Assembly: GCA_902613995.1 (NCBI GenBank)
Contig: CACMJG010000003.1
Location: forward strand, 70,054-134,053
Direction of reading: 5' to 3'
Length of the DNA: 64,000 nt
Source of the DNA: an uncultured Alphaproteobacteria bacterium
GTDB lineage: Bacteria > Pseudomonadota > Alphaproteobacteria > Methylaequorales > Methylaequoraceae
Shown in pieces: positions 16,530 through 42,017 of this stretch (position 1 is its first letter; every line of letters begins with the position of its first letter). Under the pieces are notes generated by a model. That model searched no databases, was not told where the DNA came from, and was given only the letters and a program-made list of their open reading frames with translations. The translations under genes and the position numbers were made by a program.

Positions 16530-16652
16530 ATGAATAAAATTATTGTTGTACTATTCATGGTTTTAGTTACATCATGTGAAGAAGAACAGGTAAAGGATTG
16601 GACTGATGATCCTAAATATGATCCTAAACCAAACTCTTTATTAAGGTTCTAA
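16530..16652 (+). CDS. candidate 40-aa lipoprotein
   Basis: MNKIIVVLFMVLVTSCEEEQ...: a signal peptide plus a lipobox-like LVTSC. Sub-threshold ORF. Confidence 0.3.
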   Translation: MNKIIVVLFMVLVTSCEEEQVKDWTDDPKYDPKPNSLLRF

Positions 16653-16778
16653 AAAAAATAAAAAAAAAACATCATGGTGGATAAATCCCAAGAGGATTAT
16701 TTAACTTCAAAGAAATTATCACTTATGTGTCATAAAATTTAAACAATTTTTTTTATTAAATATAAATCCTTTCCTTAT

Positions 16779-27634: not shown

Positions 27635-27710
27635 TGGTGCCCAGGGGAGGAATTGAACCACCGACACAGCGATTTTCAGTCGCTTGCTCTACCAACTGAG
27701 CTACCTGGGC
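27635..27710 (-). tRNA. tRNA-Phe (GAA)
   Basis: Canonical 76-nt cloverleaf GCCCAGGTAGCTCAGTTGGTAGAGC...CTGAAAA...GGTTCAATTCC...CTGGGCACCA. Confidence 0.95.
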
Positions 27711-32936: not shown

Positions 32937-34571
32937 TTGTTAATGTTCAATTGTATGATCGATTTAATTTGGGGAAGATATTCGTTTCTGTTTTACTTTT
33001 TTTTACTATCAGTAATATCGGGTATTGCTGGATTTTTGAATTCAAGCTTCTTTGTAATATTCTTTTTTAGTTTTTTGTTATTTATTATTTCATTAAGAGA
33101 TTACATGCAAAAAAAAAGATCTATATTATCAAATTTTCCACTTCTAGGTAGGTTTAGATTTTTTTTGGAAAGTATAAGACCTGAACTAAGGCAATATTAC
33201 TGGGAAACCGATGATGAAGAGGTTCCATATTCTCGCAACCAAAGGAGTATGGTTTATCAAAGATCAAAAAATATTGACGGTGTACGACCTTTTGGTTCAT
33301 TAGAAAAAATGTATGATGACGATTTCGTTTGGTTAAATCATTCTATTACTCCATCCTCAATTTCAAATAGTGACTTTAGAACAAAAGTTGGAATTGGGAA
33401 AAATTCATACAACATGTCTGTACTAAATATTTCAGGCACATCCTTCGGAGCAATTTCGCCGCCAGCGATAACATCATTAAACAAAGCTGCAAAAATTGGA
33501 AAATTCGCACATAATACTGGAGAGGGTTCAATGTCAAAGTATCATGAAAAAGGTGGGGGTGATACCATATGGCAAATTTCATCAGGATACTTTGGTTGTA
33601 GAAAAAAAAATGGAGATTTTTGCCCACAAAATTTTTCAAACATAGCAAAAAAAGAACAAGTTAAAATGATAGAAATAAAAATCAGTCAGGGTGCAAAACC
33701 TGGACACGGAGGAATGCTTTTAGCGCCTAAAGTAACTAAAGAAATTGCTGAAACAAGAGGTATATCAATGGGAAAAGATTGTATATCACCAGCAAAACAT
33801 AAAGAATTTTCAAATCCAAATCAGCTAATAGATTTTGTTAAAAAACTTAGAAAACTCTCTGGTAATAAACCTGTAGGAATTAAGATGTGCGTTGGTCACC
33901 CTTGGGAATTAGTATCAATTGTCAAAACAATGTTTTTAAGAAAAGAATATGTGGATTTTATTACAATTGATGGTGCTGAAGGAGGGACAGGAGCAGCACC
34001 GGCAGAGTTTACTGATCACCTTGGATCACCACTTAAAGATGCTATAGTTTTTGTAGATAATGCTTTAGTTGGATCCAATCTCAGAGAAAGAGTAAAGATT
34101 GGAGTTTCAGGAAAAATAGTTTCGGCATTCGATATTGCGCATATGTGTTCTTTAGGAGCAGATTGGATAAATATGGCAAGACCATTTATGTTTTCAATTG
34201 GTTGCATACAATGCAGATCTTGTCACACAGGCGAATGTCCAACAGGTATTGCAACCATGGATCCAATGAGATATAGAGCAATTGATATTGATGATAGATC
34301 TCAAAGAGCTTTTAATTTTCATAAAAATACATTATTTGTGTTTAAAGAGTTACTGGAGTCAGTTGGAGTACAACATCCCTCAGAGCTTAATAGAAGGCAT
34401 ATTGTCAGAAGATTATCAGAGAGCGAAATTCGATTAGCTGATCAAATATACCCAAAAGCAGAAAAAGGTGAATTAACAAAAAAAGGTAAGCTAAATATTG
34501 AAGATCCAAGACTAAATGTATACTGGAACAAAGTTTCTACGAAAAGTTTTAATTACATTCAAAAAAATTAG
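32937..34571 (+). CDS. FMN-binding glutamate synthase family protein
   Basis: N-terminal TM segments followed by a GltS FMN-domain pattern (ISQGAKPGHGG, DGAEGGTGAAP, Cys-rich CIQCRSCHTGECPTG). Confidence 0.85.
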   Translation: MLMFNCMIDLIWGRYSFLFYFFLLSVISGIAGFLNSSFFVIFFFSFLLFIISLRDYMQKKRSILSNFPLLGRFRFFLESIRPELRQYYWETDDEEVPYSRNQRSMVYQRSKNIDGVRPFGSLEKMYDDDFVWLNHSITPSSISNSDFRTKVGIGKNSYNMSVLNISGTSFGAISPPAITSLNKAAKIGKFAHNTGEGSMSKYHEKGGGDTIWQISSGYFGCRKKNGDFCPQNFSNIAKKEQVKMIEIKISQGAKPGHGGMLLAPKVTKEIAETRGISMGKDCISPAKHKEFSNPNQLIDFVKKLRKLSGNKPVGIKMCVGHPWELVSIVKTMFLRKEYVDFITIDGAEGGTGAAPAEFTDHLGSPLKDAIVFVDNALVGSNLRERVKIGVSGKIVSAFDIAHMCSLGADWINMARPFMFSIGCIQCRSCHTGECPTGIATMDPMRYRAIDIDDRSQRAFNFHKNTLFVFKELLESVGVQHPSELNRRHIVRRLSESEIRLADQIYPKAEKGELTKKGKLNIEDPRLNVYWNKVSTKSFNYIQKN

Positions 34572-34677
34572 TTTATAATTTATTTCTTTTGTAAAAAAAT
34601 CTTTTAGTTAAAGCATAATTTTCTATGGGACATGATGAGTCAATTATTATTTAAAAAAAATTTCTTCATTTTTTCTT

Positions 34678-34751
34678 GCCCTCTTAGTTTAATAGTAAAA
34701 CAGGGTCTTGGTAAGACTCAGCCACTGGAGCGTAACCAGTAGAGGGCACCA
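34678..34751 (+). tRNA. tRNA-Thr(GGU)-like cloverleaf with non-canonical D and T loops (atypical tRNA or tRNA-mimic leader)
   Basis: 7-bp acceptor stem (GCCCTCT/AGAGGGC), 4-bp D stem (GTTT/AAAC), 5-bp anticodon stem, TTGGTAA loop, 4-nt variable region, 5-bp T stem (ACTGG/CCAGT), A73 and CCA. The D loop is AATAGTA (no GG) and the T loop is AGCGTAA (no TTC). Confidence 0.5.
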
Positions 34752-34753
34752 TA

Positions 34754-35965
34754 ATGAAGAAAAATTTAACAGAAAAAATATTTATTGGTTTTGTATCAGG
34801 AATAATTTTTGGTTTGTTATTAGGAATAATTTCTATCCCTTCATTATACGAAGACCCAATTATACTATTTCTTTCATTTGGTGGTGACGTTTTTCTCAAA
34901 TTGATCAAAATGCTTGTTGTTCCTATTGTTTTTTTTTCTTTGATTAATGGTGTCGCGAATCTTCAAAATATCAGTTCTCTTGGAAGAATTGGCATAAAGT
35001 CTATAACCATATATATTACTACAACCTTTTTAGCGATATCAATTTCTCTGTTTTTTGCAAACTTATTCCAACCAGGTAGTGAAATAGACACTAACTTTGA
35101 AGCAAATAATATAAATGTTTCTGATCCTCCATCATTTTTAGAAATTTTATTAAATATAATTCCAAATAACCCCTTTGATTCATTAGTAAGAGGAGAGATG
35201 TTACAAGTAATTTTCTTTGCAATTTTAATTGGGGGTGCTTTATCATCTACAAGAGAAAGCAAAACTTTAAAAAAATTTTTTGTTGATTTTAATAGTATTA
35301 TCATGAAGGTACTTTCCTTTGTAATGTTAGTTGCTCCTGCAGGTATTTTTTGCCTCATTGCTAAAACTTTCGCAACACAAGGCTTATCATCAATTATAGA
35401 ATTAATTAAATATTTTCTTCTTGTTATTTTTGTTCTTTTTTTTCATGCGTCGGTTGTTTACCTTCCAGTAATTAAATTCTATGGAAATTTAAATTTAAAA
35501 AAGTTTTTCTCTGGAATCAAAGAGGCATTATTGTTCTCTTTTTCAACATCTAGTAGCAGTGCAACAATACCAATCACACTACAATGTGTTAAAAATAAAT
35601 TTTCCGTAAGAGAAAATATAGCATCCTTCACAATTCCGCTCGGAGCAACAATTAATATGGATGGCACTGCAATTATGCAAGGAGTAGCAACAGTTTTTAT
35701 TGCGAATTTATACGGTATTGATTTGTTTTTTACTGATTATGTTTCGATAATATTAACTGCTACACTCGCTTCAATTGGAACTGCAGGAGTACCTGGTGTA
35801 GGTATTATAATGTTAGGTATGGTTTTAAATCAAGTTGGCTTACCATTAGAAGGTATCGCTATCGTTATGGGTGTAGATAGATTTTTAGATATGTTGAGAA
35901 CATGTGTTAATGTTACTGGTGATGCAATGGTCTCTATTGTAATAAATAAAAGTGAAAAAAAATGA
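34754..35965 (+). CDS. dicarboxylate/amino acid:cation symporter (DAACS family, GltP/GltT-like)
   Basis: SSSATIPITL, IPLGATINMDGTA and DMLRTCVNVTGDA motifs. The Arg of the last motif suggests an acidic substrate. Confidence 0.9.
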   Translation: MKKNLTEKIFIGFVSGIIFGLLLGIISIPSLYEDPIILFLSFGGDVFLKLIKMLVVPIVFFSLINGVANLQNISSLGRIGIKSITIYITTTFLAISISLFFANLFQPGSEIDTNFEANNINVSDPPSFLEILLNIIPNNPFDSLVRGEMLQVIFFAILIGGALSSTRESKTLKKFFVDFNSIIMKVLSFVMLVAPAGIFCLIAKTFATQGLSSIIELIKYFLLVIFVLFFHASVVYLPVIKFYGNLNLKKFFSGIKEALLFSFSTSSSSATIPITLQCVKNKFSVRENIASFTIPLGATINMDGTAIMQGVATVFIANLYGIDLFFTDYVSIILTATLASIGTAGVPGVGIIMLGMVLNQVGLPLEGIAIVMGVDRFLDMLRTCVNVTGDAMVSIVINKSEKK

Positions 35966-40280: not shown

Positions 40281-41272
40281 TTGTAATAATTTTTATGTTT
40301 TAGCGACTCAATATTCATTTTTTGCCATAAATTGTCGTTATTGAGTAAATTTATTGTATTCACACAGAAATCTTTATCATCTTCACATACAAAACCTGTT
40401 TTTTTATTTATTACTCTTTCCTTTAAACATCCATAATTTCTTACAACAGCAGGAACACCAAGCATTTGGGATTCTGCCACTGCCATGCAGAAAGTTTCAT
40501 CATCACTACCTTTATAAACAAATACTCTTGATGATTCTATTTCTTTAAAAAGCTTTTTTCTTTCAATTGGTTTATGAATAACAACTCCTTTATTTTTTAA
40601 TGATTTTGCTTTTATAAGAATTTCTTTAATCTTTTTTGAATGTTTTCTTCCAAAAGATCCATAAGTTTCAAAACCAGAATAGACTTTCAATTTTGCATTT
40701 TTACAATTTGGAAAAATATTTTCTTCCCATTGAGTTAATAACCATTCCAAACCTCTCATAGGATTAGATGTAAATATTGCGTCTTTATTTAAATTTTTAG
40801 TTCTTTTTTTTTGAAAAAGATAATCATCAATTCCATAAGGTATTACAATTCTTGCTTTAGCAGGAGCCCACCAAGGATAGGATTTTAGATGATATATACT
40901 TGAAAAAATAATTTTAAATTTATGTACAAATAATTTTGACAAATATCTGTATTTTAGAAGATATTTAGCAGGATTATGAATCCAAAAAATTCTTTGTTTA
41001 CATTCTTCTCTGAAATTAAGATATTGATCACCCCTATTAACCACCAAAACTTCAAAATCTTCATATTCCAATTCTTTTCCAATTCTTTTCCATTTAACAC
41101 CGTTTATTGAACCTTCGTTAATACAGTTATTATAAACAGTCACCTTTAACCCAAGTTTAGCTAAACTTTCTACAAGCGAAACAAAAGCTACTTCTGCACC
41201 ACCAAATGGCTTTTCTCTTAAAACTAGTGAATCAAATTCAATTCCATTATCTATAAACAAAACCCTAGTCAT
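40238..41272 (-). CDS. glycosyltransferase family 1
   Basis: MTRVLFID opening and the ETFCMAVAESQMLGVPAV GT-B motif. Start set at the internal Met (the track start is 41320). Confidence 0.78.
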   Translation of the reverse strand: MTRVLFIDNGIEFDSLVLREKPFGGAEVAFVSLVESLAKLGLKVTVYNNCINEGSINGVKWKRIGKELEYEDFEVLVVNRGDQYLNFREECKQRIFWIHNPAKYLLKYRYLSKLFVHKFKIIFSSIYHLKSYPWWAPAKARIVIPYGIDDYLFQKKRTKNLNKDAIFTSNPMRGLEWLLTQWEENIFPNCKNAKLKVYSGFETYGSFGRKHSKKIKEILIKAKSLKNKGVVIHKPIERKKLFKEIESSRVFVYKGSDDETFCMAVAESQMLGVPAVVRNYGCLKERVINKKTGFVCEDDKDFCVNTINLLNNDNLWQKMNIESLKHKNYYNWSQIAKKWLKVLK

Positions 41273-42017
41273 TCTTCTCTTTATATTTAAGATATGAAAA
41301 TATCGGATAAAGAGAAGCAACTAGTGCTATTAGAAATCCAATGTGTTTTTCTTTGTAGCCTTTTCTTAAAAAAAAACATTTCCAAAATCTCGAAAAAATT
41401 CTTCTAACATTTTTATTCAGTGATTCACTTTTTTTGTAGTTGACAAGATCTAATGCTTTTGCAGACGAATAAGAATCTAGTTTAACGAAAAGATCAAAAA
41501 CACTTTTACAATAGTAATGATGAAGTTTGTTTTTAAGTTTTTTTCCTTCTTTACCTACTAATTTTATTTTAGGGTGCACTCTTTGGTTTCCCCAGACTTT
41601 TTTGTTTTTTTTAAAAAGTCCAGAATAAGCAGATTTTCCAAAATAAGCTCCCCATCCATAGACAATTTCTTTCTTACCAAGAAAATTTTTCACTGGAATT
41701 GTGTGCCAATCACTATCACTTGAATTGATTGTTTCTAAAATTTCTTTTGAAAGCTTCTTCGGCACTCTCTCATCAGCGTCGATTTCTAAAATCCACTCCT
41801 TTGAGCATTTACTTATACCAAAATTTCTTCTTTTTCCCTCAATATTCCATTTTCCACAGAAAAATTTTCTTGTATATTTTTTTACTATTTTTTCTGACTT
41901 GTCTGTACATCTATCTAAAATTACAACTATCTCATCGGCAAATTTAACTGATTGCAAACATTCTTCTATTTGTTTTTCCTCATTATTAATTACAATTAAA
42001 ACTGATAATCTTTTCAT
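41265..42017 (-). CDS. glycosyltransferase family 2
   Basis: LSVLIVINNEE opening and the EIDADE motif. Confidence 0.78.
   Translation of the reverse strand: MKRLSVLIVINNEEKQIEECLQSVKFADEIVVILDRCTDKSEKIVKKYTRKFFCGKWNIEGKRRNFGISKCSKEWILEIDADERVPKKLSKEILETINSSDSDWHTIPVKNFLGKKEIVYGWGAYFGKSAYSGLFKKNKKVWGNQRVHPKIKLVGKEGKKLKNKLHHYYCKSVFDLFVKLDSYSSAKALDLVNYKKSESLNKNVRRIFSRFWKCFFLRKGYKEKHIGFLIALVASLYPIFSYLKYKEKND

What the first reader, a model, noticed from the sequence alone, without database searches (positions are those of the whole stretch)
34678..34756. tRNA-geometry cloverleaf lacking GG/TTC loops, containing the SD of the downstream transporter and ending 2 nt before its ATG
Seen directly, the 74 nt fold with exact tRNA spacing:
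- acceptor stem 7 bp, perfect
- 2-nt linker (U8, A9)
- D stem 4 bp
- 1 nt
- anticodon stem 5 bp, with one G-U pair
- 7-nt loop U-U-GGU-A-A
- 4-nt variable region
- T stem 5 bp, including G53-C61
- discriminator A, then CCA

G1-C72, C2-G71, G35-U36 and A73 match the identity set reported for E. coli tRNA-Thr. However, the D loop (AAUAGUA) lacks G18-G19. The T loop (AGCGUAA) has A54/U58 swapped and G55 in place of the universal U54-U55-C56...A58.

The acceptor 3-prime strand AGAGGGC contains GAGGG, the only SD-like element for the DAACS transporter gene, 7 nt before its ATG (34754).

Possible readings:
- an atypical but functional tRNA-Thr co-transcribed with the transporter;
- a tRNA-mimic leader whose closing helix sequesters the SD, giving translational control by RNase P/Z processing, by ThrRS or another tRNA-binding protein, or by a ligand.
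Basis: partly seen in the sequence, partly recalled or inferred. Interest (0 to 1): 0.6.

Follow-up and report, generated by a model that had tools for sequence, protein, structure and literature searches.

The report
Real threonine tRNA with altered elbow
This is very probably the bacterium's working threonine tRNA for ACU/ACC codons, not a regulatory tRNA mimic. It is unusual in that its "elbow" replaces four near-universal nucleotides with a conserved alternative set, and in that it sits 2 nt from the next gene, which is common in this very compact genome.

Summary
Window 34678-34751 (+) folds into a 74-nt cloverleaf with anticodon GGU, an encoded CCA, D loop AAUAGUA and T loop AGCGUAA. It ends 2 nt before the ATG of a DAACS (PF00375) transporter gene.

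ARAGORN calls it tRNA-Thr(GGT). The Rfam tRNA model gives 49.4 bits against a threshold of 29.

- **Sole decoder.** It is the only GGU-anticodon tRNA in the 1.36-Mb genome, and ACU plus ACC make up 48% of Thr codons.
- **Conservation.** The same RNA, nearly identical, occurs across its whole order-level lineage. A related form occurs in a Pelagibacterales (SAR11) lineage.
- **Covariation.** Among 11 distinct sequences, 11 of 21 stem pairs show compensatory double changes, while all loops are invariant.
- **Elbow.** D-loop A18 always goes with T loop AGCGUAA; GG D loops go with UUCRAUU or GUCAGUA. The G19-C56 pair is kept. The same elbow occurs in phage tRNAs of 15 anticodons.

The riboregulator reading is not supported:
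- the same RNA sits in other gene contexts;
- orthologous tRNA-DAACS junctions with other acceptor stems lack any SD;
- SD use is rare genome-wide;
- 11 of 32 tRNAs abut a downstream ORF within 17 nt.

Metatranscriptome contigs span the junction, which fits co-transcription, but processing sites could not be mapped.

Verdict: a genuine tRNA with an alternative elbow. I found no description of this elbow in the paper library searched.

The parts
34678..34751 (+). tRNA-Thr(GGU) gene, 74 nt, with encoded CCA (34749-34751) and discriminator A at 34748
   Evidence: ARAGORN. Rfam tRNA 49.4 bits. The minimum-free-energy fold is the cloverleaf. Identical sequence in at least 26 species genomes of the order. 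Covariation in all four stems.
34691..34697 (+). D loop AAUAGUA: A in place of G18, G19 kept, A14 and A21 kept
   Evidence: Sequence. Always paired with T loop AGCGUAA, in 11 of 11 distinct sequences. Invariant apart from position 20, which is U or C.
34708..34714 (+). Anticodon loop UUGGUAA, anticodon GGU at 34710-34712
   Evidence: Invariant in all 11 AGCGUAA-type sequences.
34729..34735 (+). T loop AGCGUAA: A54, G55, C56, G57, U58, A59, A60, closed by G53-C61
   Evidence: Sequence. Invariant across two orders. The same loop occurs in phage tRNAs of 15 anticodons.
34742..34746 (+). SD-like GAGGG inside the 3' strand of the acceptor stem, 7 nt before the ATG. Most likely a by-product of the acceptor sequence.
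   Evidence: Sequence. Not conserved at orthologous junctions: UAGUGGC plus an A-rich spacer in genus g6, UAAGAGC in g2. SD use is rare in the genome.
34754..35965 (+). DAACS / sodium:dicarboxylate symporter family transporter gene, 403 aa. Closest models are GltP, then DctA, then SstT, all below their cut-offs.
   Evidence: ORF. PF00375 428.9 bits. NCBIfam. Follows the tRNA by 1-8 nt in 27 of 27 contigs of the own-order type.
34552..34677 (+). AT-rich region upstream of the tRNA, holding a sigma-70-like site (ATTACA-16-TATAAT, 34552-34579) that overlaps the end of the upstream gene (stop at 34571). Candidate promoter and 5' leader of the tRNA-transporter transcript.
   Evidence: Consensus scan only. 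RNA contigs run from 34500/34543/34628 into the tRNA. The region is not conserved outside the genus.
34661..34670 (+). UUUCUUCAUU, perfectly complementary to AAUGAAGAAA (34753-34762), which includes the start codon. Predicted to form a 10-bp helix around the tRNA in the precursor. Probably fortuitous.
   Evidence: Fold. Present only in the own genus, and weakened without compensation in two species. Cognate versus non-cognate duplex energy is -7.2 versus -6.4 kcal/mol.

Best explanation
The element is the genome's single, functional elongator tRNA-Thr(GGU) gene. It decodes ACU and ACC, which make up about half of all Thr codons.

**Cloverleaf and identity positions.** The cloverleaf, anticodon loop, Thr identity positions (G1-C72, C2-G71, G35, U36), discriminator and CCA are canonical.

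**Elbow.** The elbow is built from an alternative, co-varying set of nucleotides:
- A18 with G55, instead of G18 with pseudouridine 55;
- A54 with U58, instead of T54 with A58;
- G19-C56, G53-C61 and purine 57 are kept.

Because G19-C56 forms the outer face of the elbow, the surface used by the ribosome and RNase P is probably preserved (inferred).

**Transcription and processing.** The gene is transcribed on the same strand as the DAACS transporter gene that starts 2 nt after the CCA, and most likely on the same transcript. As for a third of the tRNAs in this streamlined genome, the tRNA acts as a punctuation mark. RNase P is expected to cut the 5' side, and RNase E/G plus exonucleases the 3' side (the genome has an RNase E/G gene and no clear RNase Z). 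This would release the tRNA and leave an mRNA with almost no leader.

**Translation of the transporter.** Translation does not depend on a Shine-Dalgarno sequence. The GAGGG is a by-product of the acceptor-stem sequence.

**Shown:** tRNA membership by two programs, sole-gene status, conservation, covariation, D-loop/T-loop co-variation, conserved synteny, rarity of SD, and RNA contigs spanning both junctions.

**Inferred:** aminoacylation, the geometry of the elbow, the processing route, and how the transporter mRNA is initiated.
For: **It is a tRNA.**
- ARAGORN calls tRNA-Thr(ggt).
- Rfam tRNA scores 49.4 bits against a gathering score of 29.

**It is needed for decoding.**
- It is the only GGU tRNA among the 32 tRNAs. 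The other Thr tRNA is a canonical UGU.
- No family genome that carries the AGCGUAA form has a second Thr(GGU) gene.
- ACU is 36.7% and ACC 11.7% of Thr codons, together 21.8 per 1000 codons.

**It is conserved as a structured RNA.**
- It is 100% identical in 16 of 17 genomes of 3 genera in a first look, and 36 of 42 family genomes have a match.
- 69 GTDB species contigs carry the same T loop with a GGU anticodon: 27 are the own-order type and 42 come from Pelagibacterales-labelled lineages with different stems.
- Across the 11 distinct AGCGUAA-type sequences, 99.6% of cells are paired, 11 of 21 pairs change on both sides, 0 of 500 shuffles reach the observed score, and slid controls give 0-1 such pairs. 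The D, anticodon, variable and T loops are invariant.
- D-loop AAUAG(U/C)A goes with T-loop AGCGUAA in 11 of 11 distinct sequences. GG D loops go with UUCRAUU or GUCAGUA in 35 of 35.
- The same D-loop plus T-loop pair occurs in at least 38 ARAGORN-called tRNAs of 15 anticodons in phage tRNA arrays.

**The junction to the transporter is ordinary for this genome.**
- 11 of 32 tRNAs are followed within 17 nt by a same-strand ORF of at least 100 aa, and 9 of those 11 have no SD 4-mer.
- The tRNA-DAACS synteny holds across the order whatever the T loop.
- No promoter-like or terminator-like site lies in the tRNA or the junction.
- Metatranscriptome contigs cross the tRNA-ORF junction in 8 of 8 runs, and cross the leader-tRNA junction in 3.
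- The genome has an RNase E/G gene (326 bits) and no RNase Z above the cut-off.
Against: - Four positions usually described as near-universal in elongator tRNAs are not met: G18, U54, U55 and A58. PMC7912444 describes the canonical loop.
- The Rfam score of 49.4 bits is well below that of the neighbouring tRNA-Phe (69.2 bits). With default filters the whole-window scan misses this tRNA altogether.
- No direct evidence shows that a mature, charged 74-nt RNA exists. The public runs are held only as assembled contigs.
- Contig ends at 34678 are assembly artefacts, because a DNA run has a unitig at 34678-34753.
- DNA contamination of the metatranscriptomes cannot be excluded.
- tRNA-Thr(UGU) could in principle read all four ACN codons, so indispensability is inferred, not shown.
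Confidence: 0.87

Rival explanations
1. Processing-coupled control. It is a real tRNA, but the arrangement is also a regulatory device. In the unprocessed precursor the start region is masked by the tRNA fold, with the SD in the acceptor helix and the AUG 2 nt from it. In this genus it is also masked by a 10-bp leader-AUG helix. Under this reading, RNase P and RNase E cleavage, or the tRNA maturation rate, sets how much transporter is made.
For: - The AUG lies 2 nt from a -24.5 kcal/mol structure.
- The precursor fold predicts a 10-bp helix pairing 34661-34670 with 34753-34762, which includes the AUG.
- The tRNA-DAACS linkage is conserved across the whole order.
- In 4 of 8 RNA runs (X1, X5, X6, X8) no contig covers the leader although the tRNA and ORF are covered; a fifth (X4) starts 10 nt inside the tRNA. 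All 4 DNA runs cover the leader.
Against: - The leader-AUG helix is confined to one genus. It is weakened without compensation in two species, and is no stronger than for non-cognate flanks.
- The junction length varies from 1 to 12 nt, and one clade has an 80-aa ORF inserted between tRNA and transporter.
- Ten other tRNAs have the same kind of junction with unrelated genes, so nothing is specific to this pair.
- Contig coverage is a poor measure of RNA abundance.
Confidence: 0.08
2. tRNA-mimic leader. The cloverleaf is not used in translation. It is a cis-regulatory 5' UTR that hides the SD and is opened by ThrRS, another tRNA-binding protein, a ligand or a nuclease.
For: - The SD-like GAGGG lies in the closing helix at good spacing from the ATG.
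- The elbow is non-canonical.
- The default-filter Rfam scan does not report it as a tRNA.
Against: - There is no other tRNA for ACY codons.
- The same RNA occurs in 42 contigs with other genes downstream.
- Orthologous junctions lack any SD.
- The anticodon loop, identity pairs, discriminator and CCA are all conserved, as expected of a decoding tRNA.
- The same elbow is used by phage tRNAs of many specificities.
Confidence: 0.03
3. A tRNA set aside for a non-ribosomal use, or a decaying gene. Like the non-proteinogenic tRNA-Gly species of staphylococci, the altered D and T loops could keep it away from the ribosome. Alternatively it could be a pseudogene drifting under AT pressure.
For: - Altered GG and T-psi-C elements are the hallmark of the staphylococcal cell-wall tRNAs (my knowledge; compare PMC4574755).
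- tRNA-Arg(CCU) in this genome is also AT-rich and variable.
Against: - It is the only cognate tRNA for 48% of Thr codons.
- It shows strict purifying selection with compensatory changes and invariant loops across two orders.
- The change from UUCGAUU to AGCGUAA does not lower G+C.
- It is as conserved as tRNA-Phe, tRNA-Asn and tRNA-Thr(UGU) in the same family.
Confidence: 0.02

Closest known systems
Canonical bacterial elongator tRNA-Thr(GGU), e.g. E. coli thrT in the thrU-tyrU-glyT-thrT-tufB operon (my knowledge)
   Same: Cloverleaf geometry, anticodon loop UUGGUAA, G1-C72 and C2-G71, A73, and an encoded CCA. It is also co-transcribed with a downstream protein gene.
   Different: The elbow has A18, A54, G55 and U58 instead of G18, T54, pseudouridine 55 and A58. 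The D loop is 7 nt with a single G, and the variable region is 4 nt. The protein gene starts 2 nt after the CCA rather than after a spacer that carries its own ribosome-binding site. The gene is not located in the tuf cluster: Tyr, Gly and Trp tRNAs sit together on contig C1 without it.
tRNA punctuation of animal mitochondrial transcripts, with mRNAs released by RNase P and RNase Z as near-leaderless messages (my knowledge; mentioned in PMC5474008 and PMC10941002)
   Same: tRNAs directly abut ORFs on the same strand, at 11 of 32 tRNAs here with junctions of 2-17 nt. There is no room for an SD. The tRNA lacks canonical D-loop/T-loop contacts, and the genome is AT-rich and compact.
   Different: This is a free-living bacterium with encoded CCA ends. 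It has an RNase E/G gene and no clear RNase Z. Only one tRNA has the odd elbow. Processing has not been mapped here.
Phage-encoded tRNAs in large tRNA arrays (IMG/VR contigs)
   Same: Exactly the same D loop (AAUAGUA) and T loop (G-AGCGUAA-C) module.
   Different: In phages the module appears on many specificities (Gly, Gln, Met, His, Asp, Lys, Val and others), on 1-4 tRNAs per array, with different stems and variable regions. The one phage Thr(GGU) with this elbow (L289) is a different sequence, so it is not a copy of the cellular gene.
tRNA-like translational operators and leaders: the E. coli thrS operator bound by ThrRS, T-box leaders, and the yjdF tRNA-like riboswitch (PMC9142559)
   Same: A tRNA-shaped RNA sits immediately upstream of a start codon, with the ribosome-binding region inside a helix.
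   Different: Those elements coexist with real tRNAs, mimic only parts of a tRNA or its overall shape, and are tied to one regulated gene. This one is a complete tRNA with a CCA end, is the only one for its codons, and is found in several gene contexts.
Non-proteinogenic tRNA-Gly of Staphylococcus (PMC4574755; details from my knowledge)
   Same: Bacterial tRNAs with replaced GG and T-psi-C elements.
   Different: Those are extra isoacceptors alongside proteinogenic ones. Here there is no canonical twin.

Membership tests
tRNA (Rfam RF00005), elongator tRNA-Thr | Cloverleaf with 7/4/5/5-bp stems, a 2-nt and a 1-nt connector, a 7-nt anticodon loop with U33 and purine 37, and a 7-nt T loop | tested here: met
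   Sequence, ARAGORN, minimum-free-energy fold
tRNA (Rfam RF00005), elongator tRNA-Thr | Covariance-model score above the curated threshold | tested here: met
   49.4 bits against a gathering score of 29, E = 5.8e-9. With default filters on the whole 64-kb window it is not reported.
tRNA (Rfam RF00005), elongator tRNA-Thr | Structure maintained by compensatory changes in relatives | tested here: met
   11 of 21 pairs change on both sides, 99.6% of cells are paired, 0 of 500 shuffles reach the score, and slid controls give 0-1 such pairs
tRNA (Rfam RF00005), elongator tRNA-Thr | Near-universal elbow nucleotides G18, G19, U54, U55, C56, A58 and G53-C61 | tested here: not met
   G19, C56 and G53-C61 are present. 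G18 is replaced by A, U54 by A, U55 by G, and A58 by U. The replacement set is itself invariant and co-varies.
tRNA (Rfam RF00005), elongator tRNA-Thr | Thr identity elements: G1-C72, C2-G71, G35 and U36 (E. coli set, from my knowledge) | tested here: met
   Present here. G1-C72 is found in 46 of 46 distinct relatives' sequences and C2-G71 in 45 of 46.
tRNA (Rfam RF00005), elongator tRNA-Thr | Needed for decoding: the only gene with this anticodon, and its codons are in use | tested here: met
tRNA (Rfam RF00005), elongator tRNA-Thr | A mature RNA accumulates, is aminoacylated with Thr and is used by the ribosome | not testable with these tools
   Only assembled contigs of metatranscriptomes were available
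cis-regulatory tRNA-like leader that sequesters the SD | The element is tied to the regulated gene and is absent from other contexts | tested here: not met
   42 contigs with the same T loop and a GGU anticodon have no DAACS gene downstream
cis-regulatory tRNA-like leader that sequesters the SD | SD or start-codon sequestration is conserved at orthologous junctions | tested here: not met
   Genera g6 and g2 have acceptor strands UAGUGGC and UAAGAGC with A-rich spacers and no SD. The leader-AUG helix is not conserved.
cis-regulatory tRNA-like leader that sequesters the SD | A separate genuine tRNA of the same anticodon exists | tested here: not met
tRNA-mRNA co-transcript (punctuated operon) | Same strand, with no promoter or terminator between tRNA and ORF | tested here: met
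   2-nt junction. No promoter-like or terminator-like site on the + strand in 34678-34760.
tRNA-mRNA co-transcript (punctuated operon) | RNA molecules span the junction | tested here: inconclusive
   Contigs from 8 of 8 metatranscriptome runs span it. These are assemblies, and DNA carry-over cannot be excluded. Their ends at 34678 are graph artefacts.
tRNA-mRNA co-transcript (punctuated operon) | Mapped RNase P and 3'-processing ends that release the tRNA and the mRNA | not testable with these tools
   No raw-read or end-mapping data were available

The most novel reading that the evidence does not exclude
The A18/G55 + A54/U58 + G19-C56 elbow (D loop AAUAGUA, T loop AGCGUAA) may be a discrete, self-sufficient alternative tRNA architecture rather than drift. 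On this reading:
- It works in translation without the T54 and pseudouridine-55 modifications.
- It is favoured because it is independent of, or invisible to, proteins that read the canonical T-psi-C loop.
- It moves between phages and streamlined marine bacteria as a 3'-half (T-arm) cassette, for example through integrative elements that rebuild tRNA genes.

The last point would explain why each T-arm variant is nearly identical in two bacterial orders while the other stems differ.
Probability: 0.15. Interest if true: 0.7.

Novelty: new variant of a known kind. Interest (0 to 1): 0.45.

Why it matters
**tRNA structure.** Textbook tRNA structure rests on the G18-pseudouridine 55, G19-C56 and T54-A58 contacts. 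Here an essential elongator tRNA of abundant ocean bacteria, and many phage tRNAs, use a different, conserved solution for two of these three contacts. This gives a natural test case for three questions: which parts of the elbow the ribosome, RNase P, EF-Tu and modification enzymes really need; whether Thr decoding in these cells proceeds without T54 and pseudouridine 55; and what annotation pipelines miss.

**Annotation.** The default Rfam filters missed this tRNA. Default ARAGORN missed the SAR11-lineage ortholog. Such genomes may therefore appear to lack a tRNA-Thr(GGU).

**Gene expression.** A third of the tRNAs directly abut ORFs. This suggests that SAR11-like genomes use mitochondrion-style tRNA punctuation and SD-independent, near-leaderless initiation, which has not been mapped in these organisms.

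Tried and rejected
1. **Contig starts as RNase P ends.** RNA contigs start exactly at tRNA position +1 (34678) in 5 of 8 metatranscriptome runs. I rejected this as evidence of RNase P cleavage. A DNA metagenome gives a unitig at 34678-34753, and upstream contigs stop at 34707, which is 30 nt past the variable base 34677. These are de Bruijn branch points at the edges of the fully conserved tRNA.

2. **Leader-AUG helix as a switch.** The predicted 10-bp helix is present only in the closely related species of one genus. Two species weaken it without compensation. Cognate and non-cognate flank duplexes have similar energies, -7.2 and -6.4 kcal/mol.

3. **Extra sequence constraint from a dual role.** The tRNA is 100% identical across genera, but tRNA-Phe, tRNA-Asn and tRNA-Thr(UGU) are also 99-100% identical across the family.

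4. **Internal promoter for the transporter inside the tRNA.** None was found.

5. **Threonine link through the transporter.** The DAACS protein scores best against GltP and DctA models and worst against SstT, all below their cut-offs. There is no support for a Thr-specific transporter.

6. **Copy of a phage tRNA.** The one phage Thr(GGU) with this elbow has different stems.

7. **Literature.** Seven searches and two papers read gave no description of this elbow or of an odd SAR11 tRNA-Thr. The library is incomplete, so this is not proof of novelty.

8. **Anti-SD sequence.** The rRNA operon is not in the assembly, so the anti-SD sequence could not be read.
Full report
**1.
Window 34678-34751 (+) reads GCCCUCU UA GUUU AAUAGUA AAAC A GGGUC UUGGUAA GACUC AGCC ACUGG AGCGUAA CCAGU AGAGGGC A CCA. 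It is followed by UA and then the ATG at 34754 of a 403-aa ORF.
- the stem lengths;
- the single G-U pair in the anticodon stem;
- the 4-nt variable region;
- the G53-C61 pair;
- the D loop with a single G;
- the T loop with A54, G55 and U58;
- GAGGG at 34742-34746, 7 nt before the ATG.

ARAGORN calls it tRNA-Thr(ggt). The Rfam tRNA model gives 49.4 bits (gathering score 29, E = 5.8e-9) when the region is searched with lax filters. The thermodynamic optimum is the cloverleaf, at -24.5 kcal/mol and z = -2.58. With Rfam's default filters on the whole window, only the neighbouring tRNA-Phe (69.2 bits) is reported. The element therefore sits near the detection edge of standard pipelines.

**2. The organism and its tRNA set.**
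The assembly is 1.36 Mb in 22 contigs at 30% G+C. It has a two-piece (permuted) tmRNA, which is typical of alphaproteobacteria, and 32 tRNA genes, all with an encoded CCA. Public records of relatives are labelled Pelagibacteraceae, Rickettsiales or Alphaproteobacteria bacterium; they are single-cell and metagenome-assembled genomes from seawater.

In the genome collection the lineage is an order with a single family of 42 species. There are only two Thr tRNAs: a canonical UGU tRNA and this GGU tRNA. It is the only one of the 32 with a non-TTC T loop. ACU and ACC are 36.7% and 11.7% of Thr codons, which is 21.8 per 1000 codons. The cognate decoder of about half the Thr codons is therefore this gene.

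**3. Conservation and covariation.**
The 74-mer is 100% identical in 16 relatives from three genera in a first search. A custom covariance model found a match in 36 of 42 family genomes, and in 9 of 9 of the near-complete ones. None of these carries a second, canonical Thr(GGU) next to the odd one.

A pattern that fixes only the GGU anticodon loop, G53, the T loop AGCGUAA, C61 and ACCA found 69 contigs among 185,579 species genomes:
- 27 are of the own-order type;
- 42 come from lineages labelled Pelagibacteraceae (for example AG-422-B15) with different stems, namely GCCCCUA UC GCUU AAUAGUA AAGC A GGUCA UUGGUAA UGAUC AGCC GCUGG AGCGUAA CCAGC UAGGGGC A CCA.

Across the 11 distinct sequences of this type:
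- 99.6% of pair cells are standard pairs;
- 11 of 21 pairs show changes on both sides, spread over all four helices;
- 0 of 500 shuffles reach the covariation score;
- sliding the partners by 1-3 columns leaves 0-1 such pairs;
- the D, anticodon, variable and T loops do not vary, except U/C at position 20.

This is the signature of a structured RNA under purifying selection, with the loops as constrained as the stems.

**4. The elbow is an alternative, not a ruin.**
A sample of 201 Pelagibacterales genomes gave a 74-nt Thr(GGU) in 165. Across 46 distinct 74-nt sequences from both orders, three T-loop types occur:
- the canonical UUCGAUU/UUCAAUU, found for example in a complete 1,308,759-bp genome;
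- GUCAGUA;
- AGCGUAA.

The D loop has GG in all 35 sequences with the first two types. It has AG (A at position 18) in all 11 with AGCGUAA. So G18 to A goes with U55 to G, and U54/A58 goes to A54/U58. G19, C56, G53-C61, purine 57, U8, A14 and A21 stay.

According to reviews, the G19-C56 pair is the flat outer face of the elbow that the ribosome, RNase P and T-box leaders dock on (PMC4810234, abstract). U54-A58 and U55-G18 shape the loop (PMC7912444). My inference is that the outer face is preserved and two inner contacts are replaced by a co-adapted pair of contacts.

The same two loops (AAUAGUA and G-AGCGUAA-C) occur in at least 38 ARAGORN-called tRNAs of 15 different anticodons in tRNA arrays of viral contigs, usually 1-4 per array. 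An earlier agent of this scan had claimed this, and I re-tested it here. The only phage Thr(GGU) with this elbow has different stems, so the cellular gene is not a recent phage copy. The module is thus a recurrent solution. I found no description of it in seven literature searches.

**5. The junction with the transporter.**
The downstream gene belongs to the sodium:dicarboxylate symporter family (PF00375, 428.9 bits). It is nearest to the GltP and DctA models and farthest from SstT, all below their cut-offs. There is therefore no sign of a threonine link.

The tRNA-DAACS order is ancestral to the whole order and independent of the elbow type:
- In genus g6 the tRNA has a canonical UUCGACU loop, and the ORF starts 11-12 nt later after an A-rich spacer.
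- In g2 (GUCAGUA) the ORF starts 5 nt later.
- In g5, g8 and g10 an ORF of about 80 aa for a membrane protein is inserted between the tRNA and the transporter.
- In the AGCGUAA genera the junction is 1-8 nt, and it is 2 nt in 17 of 26.

The acceptor 3' strands at these orthologous junctions are UAGUGGC, UAAGAGC, UAAGGGC and AGAGGGC. Only the last contains a core SD 4-mer.

Genome-wide, a core SD 4-mer lies at -18..-5 of 13.5% of 1103 long ORFs, against 6.6% of random 14-mers. G is barely enriched at -12..-8.

Eleven of the 32 tRNAs are followed within 17 nt by a same-strand ORF of at least 100 aa: Thr 2; Phe, Pro and Asn 6; Leu 8, 9 and 14; Arg 10 and 12; Val 12; Lys 17. Nine of these eleven have no SD 4-mer. 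So the tight junction is a habit of this genome, and the GAGGG is best read as a by-product of the acceptor sequence.

**6. Transcription and processing.**
No sigma-70-like site or intrinsic terminator lies within the tRNA or the junction. A promoter-like site (ATTACA-16-TATAAT) lies at 34552-34579.

Contigs assembled from eight seawater metatranscriptomes cross the tRNA-ORF junction in all eight runs; examples are 34678-34855, 34628-34847 and 34688-34949. In three runs contigs cross from the leader into the tRNA. One loose end shows the same for a relative with a 4-nt junction. This fits co-transcription, but contigs cannot exclude DNA carry-over.

Many RNA contigs start exactly at 34678. I first took this as a sign of RNase P cleavage. 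A DNA metagenome gives a unitig at 34678-34753, and upstream contigs end 30 nt beyond the polymorphic base 34677, so these ends are assembly branch points.

The genome has an RNase E/G gene (326 bits) and nothing above the RNase Z cut-off, in an assembly that is 89% complete. With CCA encoded in all tRNAs, I infer the proteobacterial route for the 3' end: an endonucleolytic cut just downstream, followed by exonucleolytic trimming. That would leave the transporter mRNA with at most a 2-nt leader. Whether translation starts on that product or on the precursor is unknown.

**7. Rivals.**
- **Pure tRNA mimic.** Excluded as far as sequence can exclude it: there is no other GGU tRNA, the same RNA occurs in other contexts, and SD conservation is absent.
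- **Processing-coupled control (weaker form).** The precursor fold pairs 34661-34670 with 34753-34762, including the AUG. This helix exists only in one genus, is weakened without compensation in two species, and is not stronger than for non-cognate flanks. I give this reading about 8%.
- **Decay or non-ribosomal use.** This does not fit the codon usage or the purifying selection. The tRNA is as conserved as tRNA-Phe, tRNA-Asn and tRNA-Thr(UGU) across the family.

**8. Comparison and novelty.**
By membership the element is a tRNA. It fails one classical criterion, the four near-universal elbow nucleotides, but replaces them with a conserved, co-varying set. It works like thrT in the E. coli tufB operon in being a tRNA co-transcribed with a protein gene. 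It resembles mitochondrial tRNA punctuation in leaving no leader. I file it as a new variant of a known kind.

Earlier agents of this scan reached the same reading for the same RNA in other genomes. I treated those notes as leads, and re-derived the tRNA status, the SAR11 distribution and the phage occurrence independently here.

**9. Verdict.**
Interest is moderate. The riboregulator idea falls away. What remains worth a targeted experiment is a conserved alternative tRNA elbow in abundant marine bacteria and phages, together with genome-wide tRNA-ORF punctuation and SD-independent starts.

Noticed in passing
Whole genome G000 (e.g. window 27635-27710 tRNA-Phe, minus strand; C6:32045-32120 tRNA-Asn; C1:197637-197715 tRNA-Pro): 11 of 32 tRNA genes are followed within 2-17 nt by a same-strand ORF of at least 100 aa, and 9 of these have no SD-like 4-mer. 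This suggests tRNA-punctuated transcripts and SD-independent, near-leaderless starts as a general feature of the genome.
   Followed up: partly
Relatives: G003:C2:60146-60196 vs 75889-75964; G014:C11:31315-31365 vs 16582-16657; G051:C3:135783-135833 vs 119679-119754; G045:C1:69364-69414 vs 41224-41299: Copies of about 50 nt of the 3' end of tRNA-Thr(UGU), 98-100% identical, lie 2-28 kb from the complete gene in several genomes of the family. These are probably att scars bounding islands integrated in that tRNA.
   Followed up: no
window 34678-34751; locus L102 (positions 2693-2766 of one strand): Standard detection is marginal. The Rfam gathering scan of the whole window misses the tRNA. ARAGORN at default settings misses the ortholog of the AG-422-B15-type lineage and finds it only with -ps90. 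Some SAR11-type genomes may therefore be annotated as lacking tRNA-Thr(GGU).
   Followed up: partly
Loci L019-L021, L031-L033, L111 (about 1584-1829): In three genera of the family an ORF of about 80 aa for a membrane protein (MNKKSKIDYWRWLGF...) is inserted between tRNA-Thr(GGU) and the DAACS gene. It abuts or overlaps the DAACS start.
   Followed up: no
Loci L019/L031 vs L144/L153; window 34720-34740 vs L102: For each non-canonical T-loop type, the T arm and variable region are nearly identical in the two bacterial orders (CCUG-GUCAGUA-CAGGG; AGCC-NCUGG-AGCGUAA-CCAGN), while the acceptor, D and anticodon stems differ. This could reflect lateral exchange of the tRNA 3' half or a tight structural constraint. 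It is unexplained.
   Followed up: no
G000 C2:22813-22888 (tRNA-Arg CCU); loci L037, L040, L041: tRNA-Arg(CCU) is AT-rich and resembles tRNA-Thr(GGU) closely enough to score 51-58 bits with the Thr model. Unlike the other tRNAs it varies within the genus, at 92-100% identity.
   Followed up: no
window 34661-34670 and 34753-34762: A perfect 10-nt inverted repeat would pair the 5' leader with the start codon region around the tRNA. It is genus-specific and probably fortuitous.
   Followed up: yes
G000 C1:182940-183570: tRNA-Tyr, tRNA-Gly(UCC) and tRNA-Trp sit together as in the usual tuf/secE-nusG neighbourhood. The tRNA-Thr(GGU) that accompanies them in E. coli is not there, and resides upstream of the DAACS gene instead (the E. 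coli gene order is from my knowledge).
   Followed up: no
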